64,000 nt of DNA from Candidatus Binatia bacterium (GCA_035631035.1 DASQJL010000076.1:13482-77481); one strand, 5' to 3'. Positions 21,383 through 35,718 are shown, counted from the first letter of the stretch. Program-made: numbers and translations. Notes: a model not told the origin generated them from the sequence alone.

Positions 21383-21413
21383 TGACGCGCCCGCGTCCGC
21401 CGTCGCGTATACT
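21383..21413 (+). promoter_or_regulatory. candidate dnaE promoter TGACGC-19 nt-TATACT
   Basis: AT-rich -10-like hexamer stands out in 70% GC DNA, 53 nt upstream of the dnaE ATG. Confidence 0.25.
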
Positions 21414-21466
21414 GCGGTCGTGGAACGTTCCCCCGACGGATTCCCCGCGACGCCCCCGGTGCGCGC

Positions 21467-24400
21467 ATGAGCGCGCCCTTCGTCCATCTCCATAACCACA
21501 GCGACTACTCGCTCCTCGACGGAGCGTGTCGCCTCGACCGCCTGATCGATCGCGCGAAGAAGCTCGGCATGCCGGCGCTCGCGCTCACGGATCACGGCAA
21601 TCTCTTCGGCGCGGTCGAGTTCTACGGGATGGCCAAGGCCGCCGGCGTGAAGCCGATCATCGGCTGCGAGGTCTACGTGGCGCACGGCGCGCGCGGCGAG
21701 AAGTCGCGCGGCCCCGATGGCAAGGGCGCCTACGACCACCTGGTGCTCCTCGCGAAGAACCGCGAGGGCTACCGGAACCTCATGAAGCTCTCCTCCCTCG
21801 GCTTCACCGAAGGCTTCCACTACAAGCCGCGCGTCGACAAGGAGCTGCTCGCCGCCCACGCCGGCGGGCTCCTCTGCCTGAGCGCCTGCCTGCGCGGCGA
21901 GGTGCCGCAGCGCGTCGTGGCCGGCGATCTCGAGAGGGCGAGGACCGCGGCGGGGTGGTACCGGGACCTGTACGGGGCCGATTCCTACTTCTTCGAGATC
22001 CAGGACCACGGCATCCCCGAGGAGCGGGTCTCGGCGGAGGGGCTGCTCGAGCTGGGCCGGCGGATGGGGATTCCGGTCGTGGCGACGAACGATTGCCACT
22101 ATCTGCAGCGCGAGGACGCCGAGGCGCACGAGGTGCTCCTCTGCATCCAGACCGGCAAGACGATGCTCGATCCGGACCGCTTCCGCTTCGCGACCGATCA
22201 GCTGTACGTGAAGACCCCCGAGGAGATGGAAGCGCTGTTCGCGCACGCGCCGGAGGCGATCCGGAACACGCTGGTCGCGGCCGAGCGCTGCGAGCTGGCG
22301 CTGGACACCGAGCGCGTTCAGCTTCCTTCCTTCCCGCTCCCGCCCGACATCGAGAGCGAGGAGGGGTATCTCCGGCGCCTCGCCGAAGAGGGCCTGGCGC
22401 GCCGCTACGGCGAAGGCGTCCAGGAGGTCCATCGCACGCGCCTGGAGTACGAGCTGGACGTCATCTGCAAGGTCGGCTACGCGCGCTACTTCCTGATCGT
22501 GCGCGACTTCACCGACTACGCCCGCAACAACGGCGTGGCCGTGGGGCCGGGGCGCGGGTCGGCCGCGGGGAGCATCGTCTCCTACTGTCTCGGGATCACC
22601 GATCTCGATCCGATCCGGTTCGACCTCCTCTTCGAGCGCTTCCTGAATCCGGAGCGCGTGAGCATGCCCGACATCGACATCGACTTCTCGTACGAGACGC
22701 GCCAGAAGGTGATCGACTACGTGGTCGGCCGCTACGGTCGCGAGAGCGTGAGCCAGATCATCACGTTCGGGACCATGGCCGCGCGCGCCGTCGTGCGCGA
22801 CGTCGGTCGCGCGATCGGGATGACCTACGCCGAGGTGGACCGCGTGGCCAAGATGGTGCCGGGCGACCTGGGGATGACGCTCCCCAAGGCGCTGGAGATC
22901 GTCCCCGAGCTCAAGGCGCTCCCACAGCAGGGAGAGACCTACGCGCGCCTGATCCGCTGCTCGCTCGCCCTGGAGGGACTGGCGCGTCACGCCTCGACCC
23001 ACGCGGCGGGCGTGCTCATCGCGCCGGGGCCACTCATGGACTACGTGCCGGTCTACAAGTCCCCGAAGGGGGACTTCACGACCCAGTTCGACATGAACTC
23101 GCTGGAGAAGGTCGGCCTCCTGAAGATGGACTTCCTCGGGCTCCGCACGCTGACGGTGCTCGAGGACGCGGTGGCGCACGTGAGGGAGTCGACCGGCGGG
23201 ACGATCGATCTCAAGGAGATCCCGCTCGACGACAAGACCACGTTCGACCTGCTGGGGAAGGCGCAGTCGGTCGGGGTGTTCCAGCTGGAGTCCTCCGGCA
23301 TGCGCGACCTGCTCCGGAAGCTCATGCCCGACACGTTCGAGGACATCATCGCGATCAACGCGCTCTTCCGTCCCGGCCCCATCCAGAGCGGCATGATCGA
23401 CGATTTCGTCAAGCGCAAGCACGGGAAGCAGAAGGTCACCTACATGCACCCGGCGCTCGAGCCGATCTTGAAGAACACCTACGGCGTCATCGCCTACCAG
23501 GACCAGGTCATGCAGATCGCGAACCGGCTCGCGGGGTTCACCCTCGCGCAGGCGGACCTGCTCCGGCGCGCGATGGGGAAGAAGAAGCCGGAGGAGATGG
23601 CCCGCATGAAGAAGTCGTTCCTCGAGGGCTGCGCCGAGCGGGAGGTCCCGAAGAAGACGGCCGAGGAGATCTTCGATCTCATGGAGAAGTTCGCGGGGTA
23701 CGGCTTCGTGCGCGCCCACAGCGCGGCCTACGCGATCCTCTCCTACCAGTGCGCCTATCTGAAGGCGCATCACCCCGCCGCCTATCTCGCGGCGTCGCTC
23801 ACCAGCGAAGTCGGCGACACCGACCGCATCGTGGCGCTCGTGGACGAGGCGCGCCGCACCGGGCTCCAGGTGCTGGCGCCCGACGTGAACCGGAGCAAGG
23901 CGGCGTTCACGCTGGAGGGGAACGCCATCCGCTTCGGCCTCTCCGCCGTGAAGAACGTCGGCGTCGGCTCGGTCGAGGCGATCGTGAAGGCGCGCGACGA
24001 GGGAGGGCCCTTCCGGACGCTCTCCGACTTCCTGCGCCGCGTCGACACCGCCGCCCTGAACCGGCGCGTCGTCGAGTCCCTGATCCAGGCGGGCGCCTGC
24101 GACGGTCTCGAAGGGGACCGCGCGCAGCTCCTCGAAGCGGTCGGAGATCTGCTCGCGCAGATCCAGGAGCGAGCGCGCTCGGTCGCGAAGCACCAGGAGA
24201 GCCTCTTCGGCTCCGATCCGATGGCGGCGCCGTCCGACCCGCCGCTCCCCCTGATCGCGCCCTGGGGCCTGGAAGAGCGGCTCCGGCGGGAGAAGGAGGT
24301 GCTCGGCTTCTATTTCTCAGACCATCCGCTCGGCGCCTACCGGCACATCATCGAGGCGCGCGCGACCCACACGACCGCGCGGCTCCGCGAGTGCCGCGAG

Positions 24401-24955
24401 GGGCAGGAGGTCGTGCTGATCGGACTGGTCGCCGCGATGAAGCCGCACGTGGACCGGAACAAGCGGCCGATGGCGTTCGTCACGATCGAGGACCTGCGCG
24501 GCACCGTCGAGACCACCCTGTTCGCCGATCTCTTCGAGCGGAGCCGCGCGGCGCTCACCCCGGGCACCGTGATCGAGGCCCGCGGGAAGGTGAACGTGCG
24601 CGAGGAGGCCGATCCCAAGATGGTCCTCACGGCGGTCCGCCCCGTCCCGCACCCGGGGGAGGGGGGCCCGACCGAGCTCCGGATCGATCTCGTCAAGGCT
24701 CCGCCCTCGATCACCCCCGAGGAGATCCGCTCGGTGCTGGTTCGCCACCCCGGCGAAAGCCCCGTATACTTCAAGGTTCCGGGAGCGGAGGGCGCGGAGG
24801 CGGTCACGATCCGCGCGCGCCGGCTCCTGGTCTCGCCCAGCGCAGAGCTGCTCCAGGAGCTCCGGGAGCGCCTCGGCGCCGACGCCGTGCGCGTCACGGG
24901 ACCCGCGCTCGATTCGCCGAGCGCGGGCGGGCGAGCGGAGGCCGTTCCTCTCTGA
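21467..24955 (+). CDS. dnaE: DNA polymerase III alpha subunit
   Basis: PHP domain (HLHNHSDYSLLDGA), polymerase core and OB domains over 1162 aa. Confidence 0.95.
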   Translation: MSAPFVHLHNHSDYSLLDGACRLDRLIDRAKKLGMPALALTDHGNLFGAVEFYGMAKAAGVKPIIGCEVYVAHGARGEKSRGPDGKGAYDHLVLLAKNREGYRNLMKLSSLGFTEGFHYKPRVDKELLAAHAGGLLCLSACLRGEVPQRVVAGDLERARTAAGWYRDLYGADSYFFEIQDHGIPEERVSAEGLLELGRRMGIPVVATNDCHYLQREDAEAHEVLLCIQTGKTMLDPDRFRFATDQLYVKTPEEMEALFAHAPEAIRNTLVAAERCELALDTERVQLPSFPLPPDIESEEGYLRRLAEEGLARRYGEGVQEVHRTRLEYELDVICKVGYARYFLIVRDFTDYARNNGVAVGPGRGSAAGSIVSYCLGITDLDPIRFDLLFERFLNPERVSMPDIDIDFSYETRQKVIDYVVGRYGRESVSQIITFGTMAARAVVRDVGRAIGMTYAEVDRVAKMVPGDLGMTLPKALEIVPELKALPQQGETYARLIRCSLALEGLARHASTHAAGVLIAPGPLMDYVPVYKSPKGDFTTQFDMNSLEKVGLLKMDFLGLRTLTVLEDAVAHVRESTGGTIDLKEIPLDDKTTFDLLGKAQSVGVFQLESSGMRDLLRKLMPDTFEDIIAINALFRPGPIQSGMIDDFVKRKHGKQKVTYMHPALEPILKNTYGVIAYQDQVMQIANRLAGFTLAQADLLRRAMGKKKPEEMARMKKSFLEGCAEREVPKKTAEEIFDLMEKFAGYGFVRAHSAAYAILSYQCAYLKAHHPAAYLAASLTSEVGDTDRIVALVDEARRTGLQVLAPDVNRSKAAFTLEGNAIRFGLSAVKNVGVGSVEAIVKARDEGGPFRTLSDFLRRVDTAALNRRVVESLIQAGACDGLEGDRAQLLEAVGDLLAQIQERARSVAKHQESLFGSDPMAAPSDPPLPLIAPWGLEERLRREKEVLGFYFSDHPLGAYRHIIEARATHTTARLRECREGQEVVLIGLVAAMKPHVDRNKRPMAFVTIEDLRGTVETTLFADLFERSRAALTPGTVIEARGKVNVREEADPKMVLTAVRPVPHPGEGGPTELRIDLVKAPPSITPEEIRSVLVRHPGESPVYFKVPGAEGAEAVTIRARRLLVSPSAELLQELRERLGADAVRVTGPALDSPSAGGRAEAVPL

Positions 24956-24968
24956 TCCGGAGGGACCC

Positions 24969-25958
24969 ATGAACGGAACCTGGCTCGACTTCGAGAAGCC
25001 GCTCCTCGATCTGGAGCGGCGGATCGAGGATGCCCGCGGCCTGGCGCAGGACGGAGATGCCGCGGCGCAGGAGGAGGTCTCGCGGCTGGAGCGGAAGGCG
25101 GACCGCCTCCGGCAGGAGATCTACTCCAAGCTGACCCGGTGGCAGCGCGTGAAGCTGGCCCGCCACCCGCGTCGTCCCTACACCCTCGACTACCTGGCCG
25201 TCATGGCTCCCGAGTTCATGGAGCTGCACGGCGACCGCCGCTTCGCCGACGATCCCGCGATGGTGGGCGGCGTCGCCGTGGTGGACGGCCTGCCGCTCAT
25301 GCTGATCGGGCACCAGAAGGGGCGGGACACCAAGGAGAACATCTACCGCAACTTCGGCATGGCGCACCCGGAGGGATACCGGAAGGCGCTCCGCCTGATG
25401 CGCCTCGCCGCGAACTTCGGGATCCCGATCGTGACCTTCGTGGACACGCCCGGCGCCTATCCGGGCCTGGGGGCCGAGGAGCGCGGCCAGTCCGAGGCGC
25501 TGGCCCGGAACATCCTCGAGATGGCCCACCTCGCGGTGCCGATCGTCACGGTGGTCATCGGCGAGGGGGGCTCGGGCGGCGCGCTCGCGATCGCGGTGGG
25601 GGACGTCGTGATGATGCTCGAGAACTCGATCTACTCGGTGATCACGCCGGAGGGGTGCGCGGCCATTCTATGGAAGGACGCGACCAAGGCGGAGCAGGCG
25701 GCCGAGGCGCTGAAGCTGACCGCGCAGGATCTGCTCGAGCTCAAGGTCATCGACGAGGTGATCCCCGAGCCGGTCGGCGGCGCGCACCGCGACCCGGAGG
25801 AGACGGCCCGCCGCGTCCAGAGCGTGGTCCTGCGCCACATCCGGGCGCTGATCGACCTTCCGGCGCAGGAGCTTCTCGACCGCCGGCTGGAGAAGTACAT
25901 GCGGATGGGGGTGTATCTGGAGGAGAGCGCGGCCACCGCGGCCGCCTCGGGAGCCTGA
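24969..25958 (+). CDS. accA: acetyl-CoA carboxylase carboxyltransferase alpha subunit
   Basis: Full-length AccA homology (…PRRPYTLDY…GAYPG…). Confidence 0.9.
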   Translation: MNGTWLDFEKPLLDLERRIEDARGLAQDGDAAAQEEVSRLERKADRLRQEIYSKLTRWQRVKLARHPRRPYTLDYLAVMAPEFMELHGDRRFADDPAMVGGVAVVDGLPLMLIGHQKGRDTKENIYRNFGMAHPEGYRKALRLMRLAANFGIPIVTFVDTPGAYPGLGAEERGQSEALARNILEMAHLAVPIVTVVIGEGGSGGALAIAVGDVVMMLENSIYSVITPEGCAAILWKDATKAEQAAEALKLTAQDLLELKVIDEVIPEPVGGAHRDPEETARRVQSVVLRHIRALIDLPAQELLDRRLEKYMRMGVYLEESAATAAASGA

Positions 25959-25961
25959 GCC

Positions 25962-26138
25962 ATGCCGTTGAGCGACGAGCTGCTGGAGATCCTGGTCTGT
26001 CCCCAATGCCGCGGAGACCTCGTGTACGATCGCGCCGCCGAGCGGCTGGTCTGCGCGCGCTGCCGTCTCCGGTACCCGATCGTGGACGACATTCCGGTCA
26101 TGCTGATCGAGGAAGCCGAGCGGATACCCGAGTCTTGA
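25962..26138 (+). CDS. Trm112/YcaR-family small zinc-ribbon-like protein (58 aa); absent from the ORF track because it is under 60 aa
   Basis: MPLSDELLEILVCPQCRGDLVYD…LVCARCRLRYPIVDDIPVMLIEEAE matches the Trm112p family. ATG lies 4 nt after the accA stop. Confidence 0.6.
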   Translation: MPLSDELLEILVCPQCRGDLVYDRAAERLVCARCRLRYPIVDDIPVMLIEEAERIPES

Positions 26139-29100
26139 GGCGTCCCGACCGCCGCACGGCGTCCTTCTTCGCACCCTTGCGCTCCGGCCCGGCGCTCCTG
26201 GCCGTGGCGTCCCTTCTGGTTCTCCTGCCGCCCGCTTCCAGGGTCGGCGCGCAGGTCCCGTCCGGGTTCTCCGAGGCGTCGTCCCCGGCGCCGGTTCCCA
26301 CCGTCGAAAACGCCTCCCCGACCGGATACCGCGTGCGCGTGCCGATCGGAGACGCCCAGACCGTTCGGGCGCGGATCGCGGGGTACGACCTGGCCGAGAT
26401 CCGCATTCCGGGCGGCGTGGCCGGCGGGGCGTGGGCCCAGCCCTCGCTTCCCACGCGGACGGTGCTCCTGCGAATTCCCTGGGGCGCCGAGCCGGTCGCG
26501 CGAGGAGCGTGGTCTTCCTTCCGCTCGCTGGGCTCGCTCGAGCCCGTTCCGGTGCCGCACCTCGTGACCGAGCCAAGTGTCCGGGACCGGACCGCTCCCG
26601 AGGCCGTCGCCGCGGCGATGCGGGGCGCGCCCTACCGCGCCCTCGGGGGCGGCGGGGAAGCCGCGGCGATCGCGGGGACGGCTCTCATGGCCGCCCGCGG
26701 CGAGCGCTATCTCGCGGTGACCCTCCGCCCGGTGACCTGGGACCCCGCGACGCGCGAGGCGCGGGTGGCCGACGCGATCGTCGTCGACGTCTCCTGGGAG
26801 ACGCCCGCGCGCGTCCTGCCCTCCGAGGGGCCCGCGGGCGCTGCCGGCGCGGCGCCGTCCGAGGGCGCCCTGCCGCTCGGCGTCGACGGAGCGGTCGGAC
26901 CCCGGTTCGCACAGCGCTTCGCGCGGGCCGCGACCGCCGGGCGCGCGGCCGCCGTGACGGGACCGCTCCGCGTCGACCCCTCGCGACCCTGGGTTCGCGT
27001 CGGGGTGGTCCGGCCGGGACTCTACCGGATCACCCCGGCCGCCCTCCTCAGCGCGGGCGTCAACACGGCCGGCATCGATCCGGCCACGTTCCGGCTCTTC
27101 CGCTCCCCGCCGGGCGATCTTCCCGAGAGCACCGACGTGGACGCGGGCCCCGATTCGCTCCGCGAATGCGCCATCACGGTCACGGGCGAAGGGGACGGCA
27201 CGTTCGACGCGGCCGACGCCATCTACTTCTACGGCACCGGGGAGAGCGGCTTCGGTTACGACCTGGCCGCCGGGGGCGGGCCCGAGTACCAGGAGACGCA
27301 GCGAACCGATCTGGAGCCGCTCTGGCTCACGTGGGGACCGGGCCCGGTGCCGACGCCGCCGCGCCGGATCGCGACCCGCGACGCCGCGCCCGTCTCCACC
27401 GGAGCGCCGCTCCTGACACAGGTGACCCATCGGGTCCACTTCGAGACCAATCGCTTTCCCAACTTCGACCTCTTCCAGCCCGGGCTCCGATGGGAGCGCT
27501 GGTTCATGAGCGTGCTCCCGCAGGGCGCGAGGCTCGCGTTCCCGATCACGCTGCCGGGAGCCGTGCCGGGGGGCGAGGTCTCGGCGCGGCTCCGGATGTG
27601 GGGCCAGGGCACGTCGACCGGGCACGCCGCGCGGCTCTGGTGGGACGGCGCGATCGTGGACACCGTGAGCTGGAATTTCCTCGCGGCGCGCGACCTGACC
27701 GCGTCGGGACTGCGCACCAACGGCGCGCGCGATACGGTGCAGGCCGAGGTGCCCGCGGTTGCGGGACGGACCGACCCCGAATACCTCGCCTGGTTCGAGG
27801 TCTCCTACCCGCGCGCGCTCACCGCCTCGTCGGACACGATCGCCTTCGCCGCGCCCGATTCGGTCCCCCCCGGACGCTACCGCTATGCGATCGCGGGAGT
27901 GAGCGACACCACAGCCGCCTGGCTCCTGGACCGCACCGATCCCGAAACGCCTGTGCGGCTCGCCGGCGGGACCTGGTCCGGAGCCGCGCCCGCGTTCACG
28001 CTCACCGTGGAGGACAGCGCGGGCGCCGGCTACCGGCCGCGCTATACGCTCGTCTCCACGTCGGGCGCCCCCAGCCCGTCGCTCCTGCGCTACGCGCCCG
28101 CCGCGGGTCCGCACGCGCTGGCGGACCTCCTCGATTCCGGGAACGCGGCCGATTACCTGATCGTCGCGCCGGCCGCCTTCCTCGCGCAGGCGGAGTCGCT
28201 CGCGTTCGACCGCGAGGCGCGGCTCCCCGGAGTCGCCGCTCCGCGCGCGGCCATCGCCACCACCGAGGCGATCGCCGCCCAGCTGGGCGGCGGACGGTCG
28301 GACCCGGTCGCCATCCGGAACCTCTTCGCCTTTGCCGAGCGCCATTGGGCCGCCGGACCGCTCTATGTCTGTCTCTTGGGGGACGCCTCCGACGATCCGA
28401 AGAACTATCAGATCATCTCGGCGCCCGATCTCGTGCCGACCTACAACGAGTACTGGGACGTGAGCCTCCTGCTCCAGTACATCTCGGACGACTTCTATGC
28501 CTTCCTCGACGGGCCGGGCGACCGGCTCTTCGATCTCGCGATCGGTCGGCTGCCCGCGCGCACGACCGAAGAGGCGCGCACCCTCGTGCGCGGCAAGAAC
28601 GCGGTCTACGAGCGGACGCAGGACTTCGATTGGTGGCGCGTGCGAGCGCTGCTCACGGCGGACGACGCCTGGAAATGGTCGGTCCCGAACACCAAGCGCG
28701 ACCCCGTCGGCGCCGACCACGTGACGCAGATGGAGCGGAAGGACGGATTCCATCTCCCGTTTCCCGTGCGCCGGGAGAAGGTCTACCTGAACGACTATCC
28801 CTTCGCGGATTCCACGAAGCAGTCGAAGCCGAAGGCCCGTGAGGCGTTCCTGGCCGCGGTGAACGCGGGGAACTGGCTCGCTGAGTTCGCCGGGCACGGC
28901 AACGAGAACTTCCTCGCCGACGAGCAAATGTTCCGCTCCCTCGACCTGAACCGCCTCACGAATGCCACGCGGCCTTCGATCTTCGGTTTCTTCTCCTGCA
29001 CGGTGGGGAAGTTCGACGACAACGTGCAGCAGGACGGGCTGGCCGAGCTCCTGCTGCGCTACCCCGGCGGCGGGTCGGTCGTCTCGCTGGCGGCGAGCCA

Positions 29101-30343
29101 GGAGGTGTTCGGGCTCGAGAGCGGGAGGCTGAACGACGCGTTCGTGGACGCCCTCTTCCCGGCTTCCCCGCGCGTGGACACCCTGCGCACGGCGGGGCTC
29201 GCGTGGGCCATGGCGAAGAACGCGCCGGGAAATCAGAACGAGATCGTGCGGAAGTACGGCTACCTGGGCGATCCCGCGGCCCTCCCGCCGCTCCCGCGCG
29301 GGCGCGGCGTGTTCGAAAAGGGCGCGCTCGACTCCATTCCGCGCGGCGAGGTCGCCGCGATCCGGGGGCACGCGCTGAACGCGGACGGATCCCCCGACAC
29401 GCTCTCGTCGGGCACGGTCCTGCTCGAGGCGCTCGGCCCGCCATCCCGCCGGATCGAGATCGCCGACCGGAACGGGGCGCCGACCGCGGTGCCCTACGCG
29501 CTCCCGGGGCCGGTGCTCTACCGCGGCGAAACCCCCTTGAGCCGGGGGGCCTTCACGCTTCGCTTCGTCGTGCCGACCGACGGCCGGATCATCGGCCCGG
29601 GCGCCCAGATCCGGGCGCTCCTCTCCCAGGCGGGCGGCCGGGGCGTGGGCCTCGCGGCCGACTCGCTCCGCATCGCGGCCTCGCTCGCCCCGCGCGCCGA
29701 CGCGACGCCCCCGACCATCCGCCTGCTCGGCCCGGCGGCGAACGACTCCACCGTGGCGCCGGGAACGGTCCTGACGTTCGCCATCGAGGACTCGAGCGGG
29801 ATCGATCTCACGCGACTGGACGACGCCCACAGCATCTTCACGATCGTGGACGACCGCGGCACGCCGATCGACATGACGCCGACCTTCCGCTACGAGCCCT
29901 CCAGCTTCACGCGCGGCACGGCGACGCTGACGCTGCCGCAGCTGGCCGGCGGCGCCCATCTGCTCGAAGTGCACGCCTCCGATACGTACCGGAACGTGGG
30001 GATCGCCACCTTCACGATCGACGTGGCCGCGGCCGTCCCCGGCGGGTCGGCCCTGGTCATGACGGAGGTGTTCAACTACCCGAATCCTTTTCCGCGCGAG
30101 ACCTACCTGCACGCGCGGCTGAACCAGGCGGCGCGGCTTCGGGTGCAGATCCTCACCGTGTCGGGGCGCCGGGTGCGCGATTTCGCGCTCGACGGCAAGG
30201 CGGGGGAGAACTACATCCCCTGGGACGGGCGCGATTCGGAGGGAGAAAAAGTGGCCCTCGGGGTTTATATCGTGAAGCTGACGGCAGAGGTACCGGGAGG
30301 GAATCGCGCGACGGCCATCGCGCGTGCGCTCCGAGCCGAATGA
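26135..30343 (+). CDS. C25-family (gingipain/PorU-like) cysteine peptidase with a type IX secretion C-terminal sorting domain; candidate PorU by synteny with the downstream porV-like gene (~1402 aa from TTG 26135)
   Basis: Catalytic His…Cys dyad region AEFAGHGNENF…(36 aa)…FGFFSCTVGKFDD resembles gingipain/PorU. C-terminus NYPNPFPRETYL…VSGRRVRDF…WDGRDSEGEKVALGVYIVKL is a Por_Secre_tail/FlgD-Ig-like CTD. Signal peptide RRPDRRTASFFAPLRSGPALLAVASLLVLLPPASRVGA-Q sits after a TTG overlapping the Trm112 stop (TTGA). The start codon is inferred. Confidence 0.6.
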   Translation: MRRPDRRTASFFAPLRSGPALLAVASLLVLLPPASRVGAQVPSGFSEASSPAPVPTVENASPTGYRVRVPIGDAQTVRARIAGYDLAEIRIPGGVAGGAWAQPSLPTRTVLLRIPWGAEPVARGAWSSFRSLGSLEPVPVPHLVTEPSVRDRTAPEAVAAAMRGAPYRALGGGGEAAAIAGTALMAARGERYLAVTLRPVTWDPATREARVADAIVVDVSWETPARVLPSEGPAGAAGAAPSEGALPLGVDGAVGPRFAQRFARAATAGRAAAVTGPLRVDPSRPWVRVGVVRPGLYRITPAALLSAGVNTAGIDPATFRLFRSPPGDLPESTDVDAGPDSLRECAITVTGEGDGTFDAADAIYFYGTGESGFGYDLAAGGGPEYQETQRTDLEPLWLTWGPGPVPTPPRRIATRDAAPVSTGAPLLTQVTHRVHFETNRFPNFDLFQPGLRWERWFMSVLPQGARLAFPITLPGAVPGGEVSARLRMWGQGTSTGHAARLWWDGAIVDTVSWNFLAARDLTASGLRTNGARDTVQAEVPAVAGRTDPEYLAWFEVSYPRALTASSDTIAFAAPDSVPPGRYRYAIAGVSDTTAAWLLDRTDPETPVRLAGGTWSGAAPAFTLTVEDSAGAGYRPRYTLVSTSGAPSPSLLRYAPAAGPHALADLLDSGNAADYLIVAPAAFLAQAESLAFDREARLPGVAAPRAAIATTEAIAAQLGGGRSDPVAIRNLFAFAERHWAAGPLYVCLLGDASDDPKNYQIISAPDLVPTYNEYWDVSLLLQYISDDFYAFLDGPGDRLFDLAIGRLPARTTEEARTLVRGKNAVYERTQDFDWWRVRALLTADDAWKWSVPNTKRDPVGADHVTQMERKDGFHLPFPVRREKVYLNDYPFADSTKQSKPKAREAFLAAVNAGNWLAEFAGHGNENFLADEQMFRSLDLNRLTNATRPSIFGFFSCTVGKFDDNVQQDGLAELLLRYPGGGSVVSLAASQEVFGLESGRLNDAFVDALFPASPRVDTLRTAGLAWAMAKNAPGNQNEIVRKYGYLGDPAALPPLPRGRGVFEKGALDSIPRGEVAAIRGHALNADGSPDTLSSGTVLLEALGPPSRRIEIADRNGAPTAVPYALPGPVLYRGETPLSRGAFTLRFVVPTDGRIIGPGAQIRALLSQAGGRGVGLAADSLRIAASLAPRADATPPTIRLLGPAANDSTVAPGTVLTFAIEDSSGIDLTRLDDAHSIFTIVDDRGTPIDMTPTFRYEPSSFTRGTATLTLPQLAGGAHLLEVHASDTYRNVGIATFTIDVAAAVPGGSALVMTEVFNYPNPFPRETYLHARLNQAARLRVQILTVSGRRVRDFALDGKAGENYIPWDGRDSEGEKVALGVYIVKLTAEVPGGNRATAIARALRAE

Positions 30344-30454
30344 GCATCCCCCGGCGGAACCGCTTGTTACGATGTCCCATCGTGTTCTAGACTTAGGGTC
30401 TCGTCGGGGGCGCGTTCGGCGTCCCTTCCTGCATTCCGTAAGGAGGTCTTCCAC

Positions 30455-31438
30455 ATGAGTCGCATTCTCACCGTCGCCTCGAGGGCTGCCGTAGCACTCG
30501 TCCTCCTGGCCGGCTTCGCCGCGTCCGCCCAGGCCCAGTCCGAGGCCGGAGGCATCTCCACGCTCTTCGCGCCGGGGGCGCGCGCCGACGGCATGGGTCG
30601 CGCCTTCACCGCCGTCGCCAACGACGCGAACGCGATCTGGTGGAATCCGGGCGGCCTGGCGTTCCTCCGCGGCCACGACATCAGCCTGACCTACTCCCAG
30701 CTGGTCCCCGATCTCGCCTCCGACGTGAACTGGTCCTATCCCGTCTACGCCCAGCATGTCGAGGGGTGGGGCGGCCTGGGCGCCAGCGTCGGCTACCTGA
30801 GCTACGGAAAGAGCGAAGCGACCGACGTGGACGGCAACGTGACCGGCGAGTTCACCTCGTACGAGCTGGTGCCCTCCATCGCCTACGGCACCGAGCTGGC
30901 GGACAACGTCGGCTTCGGCGTCGCCTTGAAGCTGATCCGCGTCGACCTGGCCCCGCAGGCGGTCACGCTCGACCAGAAGAACGGGCGCGGAACGACGTTC
31001 GCCGCCGACATCGGCGGCATGATCAAGATGCCGGCGGCCAAGGTCGCCATCGGCGCCACGCTCGCCAACCTGGGGCCGGATATCGCCTACATCGACCAGG
31101 ATCAGTCGGACCCGCTGGGCCGGAACATCCGGTTCGGGGTCGCCTACACGCCGATCGAGAACGACGTGCACCGCGTCCTGATCGCGGCCGACGCCTCGCG
31201 CTTCCTCATCCCCGGCCGCGTGCTCGCCGTGGACGTCTGGAACGCCGGCGCCGAGTACGAGTTCAACCGGCTCATCGCGCTCCGCGCGGGCTACATCAGC
31301 GACCCGATCGGCGACATCACGGACTTCACGTTCGGCCTGGGATTGAACTATAAGGGCGTGCGCTTCGACTACGCCTCGATCCCGCAGTCGAGCTTCCTGG
31401 ATCGCGTCAACCGGTTCTCGCTCGGATACCACTTCTAA
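30455..31438 (+). CDS. outer-membrane beta-barrel of the PorV/PorQ (LptO) family (327 aa)
   Basis: Signal peptide AQA-QS; N-terminal RADGMGRAFTAVANDANAIWWNPGGLA motif; alternating beta-strand pattern; C-terminal LGYHF aromatic terminus; AAGGAGG RBS. Sits directly downstream of the C25/PorU-like gene, as porU-porV does in Bacteroidota. Confidence 0.5.
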   Translation: MSRILTVASRAAVALVLLAGFAASAQAQSEAGGISTLFAPGARADGMGRAFTAVANDANAIWWNPGGLAFLRGHDISLTYSQLVPDLASDVNWSYPVYAQHVEGWGGLGASVGYLSYGKSEATDVDGNVTGEFTSYELVPSIAYGTELADNVGFGVALKLIRVDLAPQAVTLDQKNGRGTTFAADIGGMIKMPAAKVAIGATLANLGPDIAYIDQDQSDPLGRNIRFGVAYTPIENDVHRVLIAADASRFLIPGRVLAVDVWNAGAEYEFNRLIALRAGYISDPIGDITDFTFGLGLNYKGVRFDYASIPQSSFLDRVNRFSLGYHF

Positions 31439-31451
31439 GAACCCTTCCCAC

Positions 31452-34400
31452 GTGACCCTGCGGACGGGGCGGCGGACCGCCCGCGGCGCGCTGTTCGGAA
31501 TCGCAATCCTGGTGGGGAGCCAGGCCCTGACCTCGGGCCTGGCTCCCTTGTCCTTTGCGGCCGGCGTTCCTTCGTCGCGGCTCGTGGCGTCGAGGCCTCC
31601 CGCCGGCGCCGCGCCCGGCAGGGGCGCGCTCCTCGCCCGTCGCATCGAGCGGGCGCATGCCTTTCCCCACCGCCTGGGCGGCGCGCGGCGCGCGCCGTGG
31701 GTGAGCGGGGGACGTCCGCCGCTTTTGGCGCCGTCGTTGCGGACGGGGCAGCTGGAGCGGACGGTCGCCTTCGCGGGCGCTCCGGAGACGCTCCGCGTCC
31801 TCGGCCTGCGCGTCGACTTCGCGACCGACCGGCTGGGAGCGCAGACCACGACCCCCGACGGGAAGTTCGACCTTCGCGACGGCAAGTCGCTCGGGATCCC
31901 GATCGATCCGCCGCCGCACAATCGCGCCTATTTCCTCTCCCACTTCCAGGCGCTCCAGCGCTACTGGCGGTTCGCCTCCTACGGCAATCTCGTCCTGGAG
32001 TACGACGTCTACCCGAAGAACGACACGCTGACCTACCGCCTGGGGGACACCGGAGACTACGGACCCTGGACGCTGGGCCAGGCGTCGTTCGCGTCGGCGC
32101 AGCGCTTCTTCAAGGACGCGGTGACCAAGGCCGACCAGACCGACTCCATCCCCTTTGGCGACTTCGACGTGATCGCCCTCTTCCATTCGGGATCCGACTT
32201 CCAGACCGACCTTCGCGGCGACACCCCGCGGGATTTTCCGACGTTCGAGATCTCGCTGGAGGACTCGGTCGCCGTCAACGGCGGCGCGGTCGCGGTCTTC
32301 GGCGGCCTCGTCATGCCCGAGACGGAGAACCAGGACGGCTACTACAGCGCGCTGAACGGAACCCTGGCGCACGAGTTCGGCCACACGCAGGGGCTGCCCG
32401 ACCTCTACGACATCAACACCTTTTTCCCGGCGGTCGGCGTCTGGAGCAACATGGACTCGGGGTATCTCCTCACCACGTCGGTCCAGGACCAGAAGACGGG
32501 AGCGATCTCCGACGCGACGGGGGTCATTCCGACCAGCCTCGATCCGTGGTGCAAGAACGTCCTCTGGCCCGGGAAGCTCGACCTGGTGGATCCGGGGCGC
32601 GGCTACTCGGCCTCGCTCCGCGCGACCGAGCTTCAAGACAGCCTGCTCTACGTCCCGCTGGGGGGCGACGAGTACTACCTGATCGAAAACCGCGAGACCG
32701 ACCTGAACGGGGACAACACGGTCTACCTCGACCGCGACTCCACGACGAACGTGATCCTGGGGCCGGGGCTGTCGAGCGCCGATCCGACCGACTCGCTGGG
32801 CGACAAGGAGTACGACTTCCTGCTGCCGGGGCAGGGGATCCTGGTCTGGCACATCGACGACACGGTGATCTTCGGGGTGAACATGCCCCCCGACGGCGGG
32901 ATCAACTCGAACCCCGAGCGCCGCGGCGTGAAGGTGATGGAAGCGGACGGGATCGACGACATCGGCGATCCCAACTCGCGCTACTTCTTCGGCGGGCCCT
33001 TCGATCCGTACTTCGTGGGGAATCACACGCGCCTCGCTCCCGACACGAGCCCTTCGACCGCGACCAACGACGGAGCGCAGAGCCACGTCGCGATCACGGT
33101 GAAGTCTCCGGCCGGTGACGAAATGAGCCTGGACGTGAACTCCGAGTGGCGCGCCGAGGGGTGGCCGGTCGTTTCCGAATTCGGGCGAAGCGGCGATCCT
33201 CCCACCTTCGGCAGCCTGCGGCGCGACGCCACCCGGCAGGTCGTGGCGTCCTCCGACAGCCTGATCTACGCCTGGATGTCCAACGGCGAGCCATACACCA
33301 CGGCGAACACCGACGGCCAGTTCGCGGCGCTTCCCGCGCCGATCGTGCCGCCGGTGCTGGTGGCCGACAGCCTCTTCCGCTCGAATCCGCTCGCGGCGCA
33401 CGGGGCCGCCGTCGTCGCGACGGCCGAAGACGGCCGGGTCTACGCCTTCCGCGCGAACGATCGCGATTCGACCCAGGCGATCCCGCTCGCAGGATGGCCG
33501 CCCCTCCTTGGGGCCGGGATCGCCGCCACCACCGCGCCCTCGCTCGGCCCCGCGGGCGACGTGCTCGTGGGCGCGAGCGACGGCACCGTTTTCTCGATCG
33601 CCGGCACCGACAGCGTCTCCTTCGCGCCGTTCGTCGACGCCATCGCCGACACGCTCCGGATCGGACCGACGCCCGTCACCGCCTCGGTCGTGGGGAACCT
33701 CGCCGTGGGCCGCTTCCGCGGGCCCCCGGGCAGCTGGATGGTGGCCTACGGCCTGGCGAACGGCGTCGTGCGCCTCGTCAGCCCCGTCGGAAAGGATCCG
33801 AACGTCACCGACCTCCACTGGAACGTGGGCGGCGCGAACTTCCGTCCCTACGTGATGGGCGCCGACCTGGACCGCGACGGCGAGACGGAAGTGATCGTGC
33901 TCGACCGCGCGCAGGGAGAGGTGCACGCGCTCGATCTGGCCGGCGGCGAGCTTCCGGGCTGGCCGGTGTCCGTGGTCGGGCGCATCGAGGGCGCTCTCGC
34001 CGCCGGGGACCTGGACCGGGACGGCTACCCCGAGGTCTTCGCGGTGGACGACCAGGGATACGCGCATCGCTGGAATCGAAACGGGGTCGAGCCCCAGGGC
34101 TGGCCGGTCTCGCTCGGCGCGCGCTACGGCGCTTCGGCGGTGGGAGGGACCGGGTCGCCGGTGCTCGGCGACGTCGACGGGGACGGCACTCCCGAGCTCC
34201 TGGTCGCGACCCAGAGCGGCCTTCTGATCGCGCTGGAGGGGAACGGCACGTCGGTCCCGGGATGGCCCGTCGCGAGCCAGCCGGGTCCCGAGATCTCGCC
34301 CCTTCTCCTGTCGCTCAACGACGCGCTGACCCCGCCGGATCCCCCCGGCGGCCCCTGGGAGCACCTGATCGCCCCCGGCGGCGACGGCCTCTGGAACGGC

Positions 34401-34829
34401 TATCAGATCGGCGTGCGGGCCGACAGCGCCTACGCCACGCGGGACGGCGTGTCGCCGCGCTTCCCCTGGATCGGGTATGCGGGGGACAGGCGCCACAGCT
34501 CGATGCTGGGGGACGCCCTGCTCTTGCCTATCTCGGCCGCGGCCACGGCTTTGGCACGGGGTTCGCTGTACTGTTTTCCGAACCCGGCACGGGGGGCCGA
34601 CGTGGGTATCGCCTATACGCTGGGTGACGGAGTCGGCTCCGTCGAAATCCGGGTGCTCGACCCCCTGGGGAACGAGGTCCGGAAGATCGAAGGGCCGGTC
34701 CTGCCGTCCCAGAATGTGGCCCGGATCCCGGTGCGGGATCTCGCCAGCGGGGTATATCTGGTGCGCCTGGAGGTGAAGCGCGCGGGCGCCAGCGAGATCG
34801 CCTTCAAGAAGTTCGCAGTTGTCCGGTGA
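31452..34829 (+). CDS. M6-family (immune inhibitor A-like) zinc metalloprotease with FG-GAP/VCBS repeats and a T9SS C-terminal sorting domain (1125 aa)
   Basis: HEFGHTQGLPDLYD is the M6 signature. FG-GAP-like repeats (GDLDRDGYPEVFAVDDQG, GDVDGDGTPELLVATQSG, ADLDRDGETEVIVLD). C-terminal CFPNPARG…ASGVYLVRLEV…KKFAVVR CTD. Signal peptide present. Confidence 0.75.
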   Translation: MTLRTGRRTARGALFGIAILVGSQALTSGLAPLSFAAGVPSSRLVASRPPAGAAPGRGALLARRIERAHAFPHRLGGARRAPWVSGGRPPLLAPSLRTGQLERTVAFAGAPETLRVLGLRVDFATDRLGAQTTTPDGKFDLRDGKSLGIPIDPPPHNRAYFLSHFQALQRYWRFASYGNLVLEYDVYPKNDTLTYRLGDTGDYGPWTLGQASFASAQRFFKDAVTKADQTDSIPFGDFDVIALFHSGSDFQTDLRGDTPRDFPTFEISLEDSVAVNGGAVAVFGGLVMPETENQDGYYSALNGTLAHEFGHTQGLPDLYDINTFFPAVGVWSNMDSGYLLTTSVQDQKTGAISDATGVIPTSLDPWCKNVLWPGKLDLVDPGRGYSASLRATELQDSLLYVPLGGDEYYLIENRETDLNGDNTVYLDRDSTTNVILGPGLSSADPTDSLGDKEYDFLLPGQGILVWHIDDTVIFGVNMPPDGGINSNPERRGVKVMEADGIDDIGDPNSRYFFGGPFDPYFVGNHTRLAPDTSPSTATNDGAQSHVAITVKSPAGDEMSLDVNSEWRAEGWPVVSEFGRSGDPPTFGSLRRDATRQVVASSDSLIYAWMSNGEPYTTANTDGQFAALPAPIVPPVLVADSLFRSNPLAAHGAAVVATAEDGRVYAFRANDRDSTQAIPLAGWPPLLGAGIAATTAPSLGPAGDVLVGASDGTVFSIAGTDSVSFAPFVDAIADTLRIGPTPVTASVVGNLAVGRFRGPPGSWMVAYGLANGVVRLVSPVGKDPNVTDLHWNVGGANFRPYVMGADLDRDGETEVIVLDRAQGEVHALDLAGGELPGWPVSVVGRIEGALAAGDLDRDGYPEVFAVDDQGYAHRWNRNGVEPQGWPVSLGARYGASAVGGTGSPVLGDVDGDGTPELLVATQSGLLIALEGNGTSVPGWPVASQPGPEISPLLLSLNDALTPPDPPGGPWEHLIAPGGDGLWNGYQIGVRADSAYATRDGVSPRFPWIGYAGDRRHSSMLGDALLLPISAAATALARGSLYCFPNPARGADVGIAYTLGDGVGSVEIRVLDPLGNEVRKIEGPVLPSQNVARIPVRDLASGVYLVRLEVKRAGASEIAFKKFAVVR

Positions 34830-34854
34830 TGCGGCCCGGAGGTAGAATAAACCA

Positions 34855-35718
34855 TTGCGTTCGCATCCATTTCGGCCGGTTCAAGGAACCCGTCTTCTGA
34901 CTTCTCGCGCTCCCCTTGCGGTCCTTGCCAGCACGCTCTGTCTACTTTTGACGACAGGGGTAGGCCGCGCTTCGATGCTCGACTTCAGCCCGCTTCCCAC
35001 CGGAGAGATCCTGCTGGCACAGCGAGCGATTGCGGACACCGAAACGGTGGCCACCCCGATCGTCACCCCAAGCGGGGCCGAGGCGGTGGGACTGGCTCCC
35101 CCTCCCGTTCCCGACGTCCACAAGTCCCCCGGGAAGGCCTTCATTTACAATCTCCTCCTGCCCGGGGCGGGGCACCTGTACGCCGGCAGTAAGCGCGGGT
35201 ATGCCCACCTGGGGCTGGAAGGCGTGGCGTGGGTAACCTATTTCTATTACCACGGTCGCGGCGCGGCGAAAGAGGACCAGTACCTGGCCTATGCGGACGA
35301 CCACTGGAGCTACAGCAAGTGGGTTTCCAGCTGCAACTGCCAGGGATCTCCGGAGGACAGCCTCATCCTGTACTTCCGAGCCAACAACAAGCAGCACTAC
35401 TACGAGGACATCGGGAAGCTCAGCACCTATTCGGGCGGATGGGACGACGCCGCGTTGAACGGCTCGACCTACATCTCCGGAAACCGGAACTTCTACCGGG
35501 GGATGCGCGGGGACAGCAACAATCTCCTGAAGGACGCCCGCTACGCCGTGATGGGGAGCTTCCTCAATCGGATCGTCTCCGCCGTCGACGTGCTCCGGAT
35601 GCTCAAGCACCGGAGCAGCGCGCTTCTCGGCGAGAACACCCGAATCCGCATCAAGGTGCGCACGAGACCCTTCTCGGACCAGACCGCGGTCGGATTTGAG
35701 ATCCGGAAACAGCTGTAG
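34855..35718 (+). CDS. secreted hypothetical protein, paralog A (287 aa, TTG start), with motif KSPGKAFIYNLLLPGAGHLYAGSKRGYAHLGLEGVAW (reminiscent of the DUF5683-type PG.G..Y…W motif)
   Basis: Signal peptide. Shares the LLPGAG..Y.G..RG……EG..W motif and Trp/Tyr-rich middle region with the next gene. Confidence 0.45.
   Translation: MRSHPFRPVQGTRLLTSRAPLAVLASTLCLLLTTGVGRASMLDFSPLPTGEILLAQRAIADTETVATPIVTPSGAEAVGLAPPPVPDVHKSPGKAFIYNLLLPGAGHLYAGSKRGYAHLGLEGVAWVTYFYYHGRGAAKEDQYLAYADDHWSYSKWVSSCNCQGSPEDSLILYFRANNKQHYYEDIGKLSTYSGGWDDAALNGSTYISGNRNFYRGMRGDSNNLLKDARYAVMGSFLNRIVSAVDVLRMLKHRSSALLGENTRIRIKVRTRPFSDQTAVGFEIRKQL

What the first reader, a model, noticed from the sequence alone, without database searches (positions are those of the whole stretch)
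26135..31438. Candidate porU-porV pair whose PorU-like gene starts at a TTG overlapping a hidden Trm112 ORF
The C25 peptidase gene has no ATG/GTG that preserves its signal peptide. The only start giving a canonical signal peptide (RRPDRRTASFFAPLRSGPALLAVASLLVLLPPASRVGA-Q) is TTG 26135, overlapping by 4 nt the stop of an unlisted 58-aa Trm112-like ORF. The His…Cys dyad (GHGNEN…FFSCTVG) and CTD are intact. A PorV-like barrel follows with a strong RBS.
Basis: partly seen in the sequence, partly recalled or inferred. Interest (0 to 1): 0.55.

Follow-up and report, generated by a model that had tools for sequence, protein, structure and literature searches.

The report
PorU–PorV secretion genes, TTG start
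This is an ordinary, correctly spotted pair of type IX secretion genes (porU and porV) from an uncultivated Eisenbacteria bacterium.

Summary
A 58-aa Trm112/YcaR-like ORF (25962-26138) ends in TGA inside the sequence cTTGAg. The TTG at 26135 opens a 1402-aa ORF (to 30343).

Evidence that TTG 26135 is the start:
- All 12 related Eisenbacteria loci have a TTG at this junction. Two of them have an ATG as the next codon.
- The base before the TGA is always T, in a genome whose third codon positions are about 90% G/C.
- Third-position GC in the porU frame jumps from 0.4 to 0.9 exactly here.
- The downstream alternatives (TTG 26177, GTG 26204) are absent in the 90%-identical relative.
- Public gene calls for most of about 70 orthologues already start at this junction.

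The protein passes NCBI's PorU model (460 bits; cutoff 420). It matches P. gingivalis PorU (PDB 6ZA2) far better than gingipains, and it keeps the His/Cys dyad. A PorV gene with an AGGAGG ribosome-binding site follows.

New here: residues ~55-225 form a gingipain-type prodomain that P. gingivalis PorU lacks. This architecture is widespread in PorU of non-Bacteroidota phyla. The Arg that is conserved in Bacteroidetes PorU (Arg722) is Gln989 here.

This is a new member of a known kind, of low to moderate interest.

The parts
25962..26138 (+). Trm112/YcaR-like (UPF0434) zinc-ribbon gene, 58 aa. It starts 3 nt after the accA stop and ends in TGA at 26136-26138.
   Evidence: Pfam PF03966 E 3.7e-15. 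NCBIfam YcaR/Trm112 hits are below their cutoffs. Conserved at this position in every related locus that has upstream sequence.
26135..26138 (+). TTGA junction. The TTG start of porU overlaps the TGA stop of trm112 by 4 nt. This is the likely site of termination-reinitiation coupling.
   Evidence: Sequence. TTG is present in 12 of 12 loci; an ATG follows immediately in L005 and L007; TTG is kept even where trm112 ends earlier at a TAG. GC3 in the porU frame switches from 0.4-0.5 to 0.87-0.9 here.
26135..30343 (+). porU, 1402 aa: signal peptide, gingipain-type prodomain, linker, PorU core (N-terminal domains, C25 catalytic domain, Ig-like domains), C-terminal sorting domain.
   Evidence: NF033707 460 bits, above the 420 cutoff. 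PDB 6ZA2 PorU E 6.2e-32. About 70 full-length orthologues of 1325-1419 aa.
26135..26251 (+). Predicted Sec signal peptide, residues 1-39. n-region RRPDRRTASFFAPLRS, h-region GPALLAVASLLVLL, c-region PPASRVGA, cut before Gln40.
   Evidence: Read from the translation. Orthologues have equivalent signal peptides. An in-frame 6-nt indel relative to L016 lies inside this region. No signal-peptide predictor was available.
26297..26809 (+). Gingipain-type prodomain (Propeptide_C25-like), residues ~55-225. It is absent from P. gingivalis PorU.
   Evidence: Kgp prodomain 5MUN: phmmer E 5.4e-9, profile E 1.1e-11. AF2 pLDDT >90 over most of 51-230. Foldseek finds only the RgpB and Kgp prodomains, E 6e-10 to 7e-9, probability 1.0. 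Pfam PF08126 is sub-threshold here (15.8 bits) but passes in orthologue P0002.
26810..26959 (+). Variable, Ala/Pro/Gly/Arg-rich linker, residues ~226-275, between the prodomain and the PorU core. It is a candidate processing region.
   Evidence: Many gaps and no conserved columns except A253, G255 and P256 in alignment A1. Mostly low pLDDT.
26984..30298 (+). PorU core matched by the NCBIfam T9SS sortase model, residues 284-1388.
   Evidence: The mature N-terminus of P. gingivalis PorU (residue ~22 of chain 6ZA2_A) aligns to residue ~269 here.
28154..29281 (+). Peptidase C25 catalytic domain, residues 674-1049. His921 is encoded at 28895-28897 and Cys955 at 28997-28999.
   Evidence: Pfam PF01364 E 1.6e-60. 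His and Cys are invariant in 42 of 42 aligned relatives. They align to YAGHGG and TATCDF of P. gingivalis PorU.
30077..30340 (+). C-terminal T9SS sorting domain (CTD), residues ~1315-1402.
   Evidence: Pfam FlgD_ig 31 bits, above the cutoff of 27. TIGR04183 22.6 bits, cutoff 23. Aligns to the PorU CTD of 6ZA2.
30364..30426 (+). Conserved elements in the porU-porV spacer: TTGTTA, 18 nt, TAGACT, then an 8-bp GC hairpin at 30406-30426.
   Evidence: Alignment of 9 loci and fold. Their function is not resolved.
30441..30446 (+). Shine-Dalgarno AGGAGG of porV, ending 8 nt before the ATG.
   Evidence: AAGGAGG is conserved in all 9 aligned loci.
30455..31438 (+). porV, 327 aa, an outer-membrane beta-barrel of the PorV/PorQ family with a signal peptide (…FAASAQA|Q).
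   Evidence: NF033709 PorV_fam 224.7 bits, above the cutoff of 90. PorV equivalog 146 bits, below its cutoff of 250 but above PorQ at 77 bits. Pfam PorV PF19572 70 bits.
31452..34829 (+). Context: M6-like metalloprotease (HEFGH intact) with FG-GAP repeats and a T9SS CTD. It is a likely cargo and is always adjacent.
   Evidence: Synteny is conserved in every locus with enough downstream sequence.

Best explanation
The region encodes the PorU-PorV module of a type IX secretion system (T9SS) in a Candidatus Eisenbacteria genome. It sits in a conserved gene string: dnaE-accA-trm112-porU-porV-M6 protease.

Shown:
- porU begins at TTG 26135. This TTG overlaps the TGA of the small trm112-like gene, and no good Shine-Dalgarno sequence lies at the usual distance.
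- The product has a 39-residue signal peptide and a ~170-residue domain homologous to the inhibitory prodomains of gingipains RgpB and Kgp.
- A variable linker follows, then a full PorU core with the His921/Cys955 dyad and a C-terminal sorting domain.
- porV follows, with ATG and a strong AGGAGG.

Inferred:
- Ribosomes that finish trm112 re-initiate at the weak TTG. This would keep PorU low and tied to upstream translation, while PorV is made in larger amounts from its own strong ribosome-binding site, and possibly its own promoter.
- PorU crosses the inner membrane via Sec and folds in the periplasm as a zymogen held inactive by its own prodomain, as gingipains are.
- It is exported through the T9SS by its CTD and docks on PorV. 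After loss of the prodomain, it removes the CTDs of cargo such as the neighbouring M6-like protease.
For: Start codon:
- TTG at the junction in 12 of 12 loci. The wobble base is T in all 9 overlapping cases despite GC3 of about 0.9. TTG is kept where trm112 stops early. ATG is the next codon in 2 loci.
- GC3 switches frame at 26135.
- TTG 26177 and GTG 26204 are absent in the 90% relative, and an in-frame indel lies in the signal-peptide region.
- 26 JGI orthologues start with L at this position and 4 with M. The JGI call for L016 overlaps trm112 by 4 nt.

PorU identity:
- NF033707 460 bits, above the 420 cutoff, with near-full model coverage. Seven orthologues score 467-493 bits.
- 6ZA2 PorU E 6e-32 for the whole protein. 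For the catalytic domain alone, E 1.3e-14 against 0.12 for RgpB.
- His and Cys are invariant.

PorV:
- NF033709 224.7 bits, above the cutoff of 90.

Prodomain:
-.
- 37 of 40 long proteins that carry this domain also match the PorU model at E <= 1e-5. The clusters of four of these 40 (P0150, P0151, P0154, P0173) have members named PorU in KSB1, Gemmatimonadota, Zixibacteria and Latescibacterota.

Synteny and regulation:
- Synteny is conserved.
- Gingipain prodomains inhibit the enzyme in the periplasm (review PMC10202324).
Against: - No experimental data exist for this uncultivated lineage. The start site, coupling, signal-peptide cleavage and prodomain function are all inferred.
- No signal-peptide predictor was available.
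- The Arg that is conserved 32 residues after the catalytic Cys in Bacteroidetes PorU (Arg722), and was proposed to be sortase-relevant, is Gln989 here and Q/G/D/E in other Eisenbacteria. Transpeptidase activity is therefore uncertain.
- The PorV equivalog model is below its cutoff (146 bits against 250).
- No other T9SS component was found among the 14 neighbouring ORFs scanned in this window.
- PGAP has named several orthologues only 'C25 family cysteine peptidase'.
Confidence: 0.85

Rival explanations
1. The gene starts elsewhere: at the upstream in-frame ATG 26006 (inside trm112), or downstream at TTG 26177 or GTG 26204.
For: - Some database entries (P0001, P0002, P0006, P0008) were called with upstream extensions that run through trm112.
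- TTG 26177 would still give a plausible signal peptide.
- There is no Shine-Dalgarno sequence before any of the candidates.
Against: - GC3 in the porU frame is only 0.3-0.5 upstream of 26135. An ATG 26006 start would bury the signal peptide behind 43 residues read from the wrong frame of trm112.
- TTG 26177 and GTG 26204 are replaced by GCG in L016 (90% identity) and are not conserved in the other loci.
- The RRPDRR n-region is conserved with P0009.
Confidence: 0.06
2. The protein is not the T9SS sortase but a secreted, gingipain-like cargo protease. It would be made as a zymogen with a prodomain, exported via its CTD and then released, and it merely happens to sit next to a PorV-family barrel.
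For: - It has a gingipain-type prodomain, which is a cargo-protease feature.
- It lacks the Arg722 equivalent of Bacteroidetes PorU.
- Its CTD (~88 aa) is shorter than the 108-aa retained CTD of P. gingivalis PorU.
- PGAP names several orthologues 'C25 family cysteine peptidase'.
Against: - The match to the PorU model is end to end and above its cutoff, including the N-terminal domains and Ig-like domains that gingipains lack.
- The catalytic domain matches PorU about 13 orders of magnitude better than RgpB.
- Adjacency to porV is strictly conserved.
- The same prodomain-plus-core architecture is named PorU in several other phyla, and some of those proteins keep the Arg.
Confidence: 0.1
3. The TTG is conserved only because it is forced by the last codon and TGA stop of trm112, and has nothing to do with porU initiation.
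For: In 9 of 12 loci the TG of the TTG belongs to the trm112 stop codon.
Against: - The T before the TGA is a synonymous third position. It is T in all 9 overlapping cases across four different amino acids, in a genome with GC3 of about 0.9.
- In L004, L005 and L015 trm112 ends at an upstream TAG, yet TTGA is retained in what is then spacer.
Confidence: 0.03

Closest known systems
[quoted passage not shown]
   Same: - Same core: N-terminal domains, C25 catalytic domain with a His/Cys dyad, Ig-like domains and CTD.
- Residues 669-1394 align to PorU residues 401-1147 (E 6e-32).
- A porV gene lies immediately downstream.
- A signal peptide is followed by Gln.
   Different: - About 230 extra N-terminal residues here form a gingipain-type prodomain plus linker, which P. 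gingivalis PorU lacks. Its mature N-terminus aligns to residue ~269 here.
- P. gingivalis PorU is reported to be kept latent by dimerisation through a beta-hairpin (PMC10202324), not by a prodomain.
- Arg722 is Gln989 here.
- The CTD is ~88 aa here against 108 aa.
Prodomains of gingipains RgpB (PDB 4IEF) and Kgp (PDB 5MUN); Pfam Propeptide_C25 (PF08126)
   Same: - Homologous fold and sequence: profile E 1e-11; Foldseek E about 1e-9 to 1e-10 with target-normalised TM 0.60-0.66.
- Same position, directly after the signal peptide and before a C25 catalytic unit.
   Different: - Here the domain is attached to a PorU-type core instead of a cargo gingipain.
- The residue aligned to the S1-blocking Lys129 of Kgp is Asp151, flanked by Arg150 and Arg152. 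The Lys129 role and numbering are from my own knowledge of Pomowski et al. 2017.
- Inhibition has not been tested.
PGAP-annotated 'type IX secretion system sortase PorU' of KSB1, Gemmatimonadota, Zixibacteria and Latescibacterota (e.g. NQT26002.1, MEE2991928.1, HIG48850.1)
   Same: Same architecture of prodomain plus PorU core plus CTD. Non-Bacteroidota members of the FCB group.
   Different: - Only about 20-28% identical to one another.
- The KSB1 and Gemmatimonadota/Zixibacteria proteins keep the Arg722 equivalent, while the Eisenbacteria clade does not.
PorV (PG0027/LptO), the T9SS outer-membrane shuttle
   Same: PorV/PorQ-family barrel (NF033709 above its cutoff, Pfam PorV), encoded directly after porU.
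   Different: It scores below the PorV equivalog cutoff (146 bits against 250), so a PorV assignment rather than PorQ rests on the better score and on synteny.
Bacterial Trm112/YcaR (UPF0434) small zinc-ribbon proteins
   Same: 58 aa, CPxC…CxxC motif, Pfam Trm112p above its cutoff.
   Different: No known link to secretion. Here it serves as the upstream cistron whose stop overlaps the porU start.

Membership tests
PorU (T9SS C-terminal signal peptidase/sortase; NCBIfam NF033707) | Score above the curated cutoff with full-length coverage of the PorU model | tested here: met
   460.2 bits against a cutoff of 420. Model positions 5-1082 of 1095 match residues 284-1388. Seven orthologues score 467-493 bits.
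PorU (T9SS C-terminal signal peptidase/sortase; NCBIfam NF033707) | C25 catalytic domain with a His/Cys dyad, closer to PorU than to gingipains | tested here: met
   Pfam C25 E 1.6e-60. His921 and Cys955 align to the PorU dyad and are invariant in 42 of 42 relatives. The catalytic domain alone hits PorU at E 1.3e-14 against RgpB at 0.12.
PorU (T9SS C-terminal signal peptidase/sortase; NCBIfam NF033707) | [quoted passage not shown] It was reported for 16 Bacteroidetes orthologues, proposed to be sortase-like, and is not known to me to be functionally validated. | tested here: not met
   It aligns to Gln989 (AASQEVF against STTRVVY). Other Eisenbacteria have Q, G, D or E, while the KSB1 and Gemmatimonadota/Zixibacteria PorU have Arg. 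Source: PMC4560394.
PorU (T9SS C-terminal signal peptidase/sortase; NCBIfam NF033707) | N-terminal Sec signal peptide and a C-terminal T9SS sorting domain | tested here: met
   The signal peptide was read from the sequence. For the CTD: FlgD_ig 31 bits, above its cutoff of 27; TIGR04183 22.6 bits against a cutoff of 23; and it aligns to the PorU CTD.
PorU (T9SS C-terminal signal peptidase/sortase; NCBIfam NF033707) | The CTD is retained (not cleaved) and anchors PorU to PorV | not testable with these tools
   The literature states that the features distinguishing cleaved from retained CTDs are undetermined (PMC11285876).
PorU (T9SS C-terminal signal peptidase/sortase; NCBIfam NF033707) | Genomic association with porV and presence of a T9SS in the genome | tested here: inconclusive
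   porV is immediately downstream in all 15 loci that reach it. A CTD-bearing M6 protease is adjacent. No core T9SS genes were found among the 14 neighbouring ORFs scanned in this window, and the whole genome could not be scanned.
PorV (NCBIfam NF033709 / NF033710; Pfam PF19572) | Score above the family cutoffs | tested here: met
   The subfamily model PorV_fam scores 224.7 bits against a cutoff of 90, and Pfam PorV scores 70 bits against 27. The PorV equivalog is not met (146 bits against 250), but it scores better than PorQ at 77 bits.
Gingipain prodomain (Pfam PF08126 Propeptide_C25) | Sequence and fold homology to the RgpB and Kgp prodomains | tested here: met
   5MUN E 5.4e-9 with the single sequence and 1.1e-11 with the profile. 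Foldseek hits only 4IEF and 5MUN prodomain chains at E <= 7e-9. The Pfam model itself is sub-threshold for this sequence (15.8 bits against 22) but passes in orthologue P0002 (24.9 bits).
Gingipain prodomain (Pfam PF08126 Propeptide_C25) | Inhibits the cognate catalytic domain and is removed on activation | not testable with these tools
This needs biochemistry or a full-length model.
Trm112/YcaR (Pfam PF03966) | Pfam score above the gathering cutoff; zinc-ribbon CxxC pairs | tested here: met
   56 bits against a cutoff of 22. The motifs CPQC and CARC are in the sequence. The NCBIfam equivalogs are below their cutoffs.

The most novel reading that the evidence does not exclude
In Eisenbacteria, and more widely in non-Bacteroidota FCB phyla, the T9SS signal peptidase PorU is made as a gingipain-style zymogen. 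Its own N-terminal prodomain would keep it latent until export. This would be an intramolecular alternative to the dimer/beta-hairpin latency described for P. gingivalis PorU. In addition, the Eisenbacteria clade has lost the Arg722 equivalent. It may therefore act only as a CTD-removing hydrolase and not as an LPS-attaching sortase.
Probability: 0.4. Interest if true: 0.5.

Novelty: new member of a known kind. Interest (0 to 1): 0.3.

Why it matters
- Annotation: the result fixes the correct start of porU in a whole phylum. Several database entries are mis-extended through trm112 or truncated. Start-site errors have also affected P. gingivalis PG0026 itself (PMC4560394).
- T9SS distribution: the PorU-PorV attachment module reaches into Candidatus Eisenbacteria, in a strictly conserved housekeeping gene string.
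- T9SS biology: the more useful point is that many PorU proteins outside Bacteroidota carry a gingipain-type prodomain, and that the Eisenbacteria clade lacks the proposed sortase Arg. Both give testable predictions about how the sortase is kept inactive before export, and about whether cell-surface attachment is universal.
- None of this changes the basic picture of the system.

Tried and rejected
- Upstream ATG 26006 as the start: rejected on the GC3 frame analysis.
- TTG 26177 and GTG 26204 as the start: rejected on conservation.
- A Shine-Dalgarno sequence for porU: none at -5 to -13. The conserved GAGGAAGCCGAGCGG lies 11-25 nt upstream and encodes the Trm112 EEAER motif, so its conservation is explained by coding.
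- Twin-arginine (Tat) signal: RRPDRR and RRTASFF do not fit S/T-R-R-x-F-L-K, and the motif is not conserved in orthologues. It was judged to be a Sec signal by inspection only.
- Rfam scan of 25800-31700 at E <= 1: only a chance miRNA hit.
- Promoter and terminator scan of 21000-35500: nothing between dnaE and the M6 gene except a hairpin inside the M6 signal-peptide coding region.
- NCBIfam and Pfam scans of 14 neighbouring ORFs for other T9SS parts: only housekeeping genes (PBP1, NadA, LigA, DinG/YoaA, HutU, 2-oxoacid oxidoreductase) and unknowns.
- Classifying the CTD as retained or cleaved: abandoned, because no sequence criterion exists.
- Reading the PorU structure paper (PNAS 2021, PMC8501833): not held. 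The H657/C690 numbering and the seven-domain description are therefore from my own memory of its abstract.
- Literature searches for Eisenbacteria plus T9SS, and for PorU plus Propeptide_C25: no papers in the held library.
- Modelling prodomain-catalytic domain docking: not attempted, because model coordinates and contacts cannot be inspected with these tools.

Full report
WHAT IS THERE

The window has 71% G+C. Related loci carry titles naming Candidatus Eisenbacteria MAGs. On the + strand the genes run:
- dnaE, 21467-24955
- accA, 24969-25958
- a 58-aa ORF, 25962-26138
- a 1402-aa ORF, 26135-30343
- a 327-aa ORF, 30455-31438
- an 1125-aa ORF, 31452-34829

The 58-aa ORF is a Trm112/YcaR-type zinc ribbon (Pfam PF03966, E 3.7e-15). 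Its TGA stop (26136-26138) lies inside cTTGAg.

THE START CODON

The in-frame candidates are ATG 26006, TTG 26135, TTG 26177 and GTG 26204. Four independent lines pick TTG 26135.

(a) Conservation of the TTG.
- Ten related Eisenbacteria loci with upstream sequence, plus the 90%-identical locus L016, all have a TTG at this junction.
- In L005 and L007 it is followed at once by ATG (TTGATG).
- In L004, L005 and L015 trm112 ends 8 nt earlier at a TAG, and the TTGA is still present.

(b) The base before the TGA.
- Where the TGA overlaps, the last trm112 codon is TCT, GCT, GGT or CGT.
- That is four different amino acids, always with a T in the wobble position, in a genome whose third positions are about 90% G/C.

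(c) Coding signal.
- GC3 in the porU frame is 0.3-0.5 up to 26135 and 0.87-0.93 from 26140 on.
- The accA/trm112 frame shows the reverse pattern.
- This excludes ATG 26006.

(d) The downstream alternatives.
- In L016, TTG 26177 and GTG 26204 are both GCG.
- A 6-nt in-frame indel lies between them.

Public gene calls agree. Most of the ~70 full-length orthologues begin at this junction. Of these, 26 JGI entries start literally with L (LSRPDRR…, LIRRR…) and four with M (MRR…). The JGI call for L016 overlaps trm112 by 4 nt. A few entries (P0001, P0002, P0006, P0008) are wrongly extended through trm112, and several are truncated.

TTG 26177 would give MRSGPALLAVASLLVLLPPASRVGA|Q, but it is not conserved.

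No Shine-Dalgarno sequence lies 5-13 nt before the TTG. The conserved GAGGAAGCCGAGCGG lies further upstream and encodes the EEAER motif of Trm112. In contrast, trm112 has GGAG, and porV has AGGAGG ending 8 nt before its ATG. I infer that porU is translated by ribosomes that terminate on trm112 and re-initiate at the weak TTG. This would hold PorU at a low level relative to PorV. It is inference, not shown.

WHAT THE PROTEIN IS

- NCBIfam's PorU model (NF033707) scores 460 bits against a cutoff of 420. It matches residues 284-1388 to model positions 5-1082 of 1095. Seven orthologues score 467-493 bits.
- The best solved structure by sequence is P. gingivalis PorU (6ZA2, E 6.2e-32).
- With the catalytic domain alone, PorU scores E 1.3e-14 and the RgpB mature domain only 0.12. 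So the enzyme is PorU-like, not gingipain-like.
- His921 (AGHGNEN) and Cys955 (FFSCTVG) align with the PorU dyad. They are invariant in 42 aligned relatives.
- The last ~88 residues align with the PorU CTD. They hit FlgD_ig above its cutoff and TIGR04183 just below its cutoff.
- The next gene is a PorV/PorQ-family barrel: NF033709 224.7 bits against 90; PorV equivalog 146 bits against 250; PorQ 77 bits.
- The string dnaE-accA-trm112-porU-porV-M6-orf290 is kept in every locus with enough flanking sequence.

The PorU model starts only at residue 284. The mature N-terminus of P. gingivalis PorU aligns to residue ~269. The extra region breaks down as follows.
- Residues ~55-225 are conserved across the clade (alignment A1).
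- They are homologous to the prodomain of gingipain K: 5MUN, E 5.4e-9 with the single sequence and 1.1e-11 with the profile.
- An AlphaFold2 model has pLDDT above 90 over most of residues 51-230.
- In the PDB this model finds only the RgpB and Kgp prodomains (4IEF, 5MUN), at E 6e-10 to 7e-9 with probability 1.0. The next hit is at E 0.6.
- Residues 226-275 are a variable, low-confidence linker.

The residue aligned with Kgp Lys129 is Asp151, between Arg150 and Arg152. The role of Lys129 in blocking the S1 pocket is from my own knowledge. I do not build on this point.

A profile of this region finds 349 cluster representatives at E <= 1e-3 among 1.84 billion proteins. Of 40 long hits, 37 also match the PorU model at E <= 1e-5. 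The clusters of four of those 40 hits (P0150, P0151, P0154, P0173) carry names. Members are annotated as PorU in KSB1, Gemmatimonadota, Zixibacteria and Latescibacterota, and as C25 peptidases in KSB1 and Chloroflexota. So the prodomain-PorU architecture is widespread outside Bacteroidota and already sits in databases under the PorU name. I found no paper discussing it in the held library.

Gingipain prodomains keep the enzymes inactive in the periplasm. P. gingivalis PorU is reported to be restrained by dimerisation instead (PMC10202324). The natural reading is that these PorU proteins are zymogens restrained by their own prodomain. This is inferred.

A FEATURE THAT IS NOT MET

Gorasia et al. 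(PMC4560394) reported an Arg conserved in 16 Bacteroidetes PorU orthologues, 32 residues after the catalytic Cys (Arg722). It is absent from gingipains, and they likened it to the sortase Arg.
- Here that position is Gln989.
- Other Eisenbacteria have Q, G, D or E.
- The KSB1 and Gemmatimonadota/Zixibacteria PorU keep Arg.

I still file the protein under PorU on the curated model, the fold-wide match and the synteny. But whether it attaches cargo to the surface or only cleaves CTDs is open.

THE CTD TYPE

A 2024 study concluded that the features separating PorU-cleaved from retained CTDs remain undetermined (PMC11285876). The CTD here is about 88 aa, against 108 aa in P. gingivalis PorU.

CONTEXT AND SIDE OBSERVATIONS

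- The porU-porV spacer is conserved. It holds a sigma-70-like TTGTTA/18 nt/TAGACT, then an invariant 8-bp hairpin at 30406-30426. A T-run follows the hairpin in some loci but not in this window.
- Whether this spacer is a porV promoter, a leaky terminator or a leader is unresolved.
- The downstream M6-like protein has an intact HEFGH, FG-GAP repeats and a T9SS CTD. It is a likely substrate.
- No other T9SS component was found among the 14 neighbouring ORFs scanned.
- Rfam found nothing.

VERDICT

It is an ordinary PorU-PorV module in a little-studied phylum, and the TTG start is one that standard pipelines already call in most orthologues. The prodomain and the missing Arg are modest, testable additions.

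Novelty: new member of a known kind. Interest: 0.3.

Noticed in passing
window 30364-30426 (porU-porV spacer): The spacer is conserved across divergent Eisenbacteria loci. It holds TTGTTA (30364-69), 18 nt, TAGACT (30388-93), then an invariant 8-bp GC hairpin (30406-26) ahead of the AGGAGG. In L007, L010 and L014 a T-run follows the hairpin, so it looks like a terminator. In this window it does not. Promoter, terminator or leader: not resolved.
   Followed up: partly
window 29099-29101 (codon of Gln989 in porU): The position equivalent to the conserved Arg722 of Bacteroidetes PorU (proposed to be sortase-like) is Gln here and Q/G/D/E in other Eisenbacteria. It is Arg in the PorU of KSB1 and of Gemmatimonadota/Zixibacteria.
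   Followed up: partly
window 31452-34829: An M6-like metalloprotease with intact HEFGH, FG-GAP repeats and a T9SS CTD always follows porV. Its best NCBIfam family is the 'T9SS-dependent M6-like inactivated metalloprotease' (228 bits, far below the 600 cutoff), yet the zinc motif here is intact.
   Followed up: partly
window 31514-31548: A 14-bp (11 G-C) hairpin lies inside the signal-peptide coding part of the M6-like gene, 76 nt after the porV stop. The terminator scan flagged it, but it has a poor T tail.
   Followed up: no
window 26249-26254 and 30533-30538: The predicted signal-peptidase cuts in both PorU (VGA|Q40) and PorV (AQA|Q) leave an N-terminal Gln. This is reminiscent of the Bacteroidetes 'Q-rule' (pyroglutamate N-termini), which I recall from memory. 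L003, L011 and L013 also show …SA|Q in PorU.
   Followed up: no
P0001, P0002, P0006, P0008 and P0013, P0031, P0040, P0045, P0072, P0077 (database orthologues): Public gene calls for this orthologue group are inconsistent at the N-terminus. Some run upstream through trm112 in the wrong frame (…DRGSRA…). Others are truncated into the prodomain.
   Followed up: yes
L001, L008, L009, L011; P0017: Loci 60-93% identical to this Eisenbacteria locus sit in MAGs labelled Omnitrophota, Limnocylindrales, Acidobacteriota, Bacteroidota and Hyphomicrobiales. This is most likely binning or label noise rather than gene transfer.
   Followed up: no
window 34846-35718, 35552-36580 and 37585-40869: These three ORFs have a good coding signature (GC3 0.79-0.93) but no Pfam or NCBIfam match. 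The first (about 290 aa) is syntenic with the porU-porV-M6 string in all loci that reach it.
   Followed up: partly
window 18602-24193 (-), 25631-31921 (-), 26431-28842 (+) and others: Very long ORFs on the opposite strand and in the other frames are artefacts of the 71% G+C content. They lack the GC3 > GC1 > GC2 pattern.
   Followed up: yes
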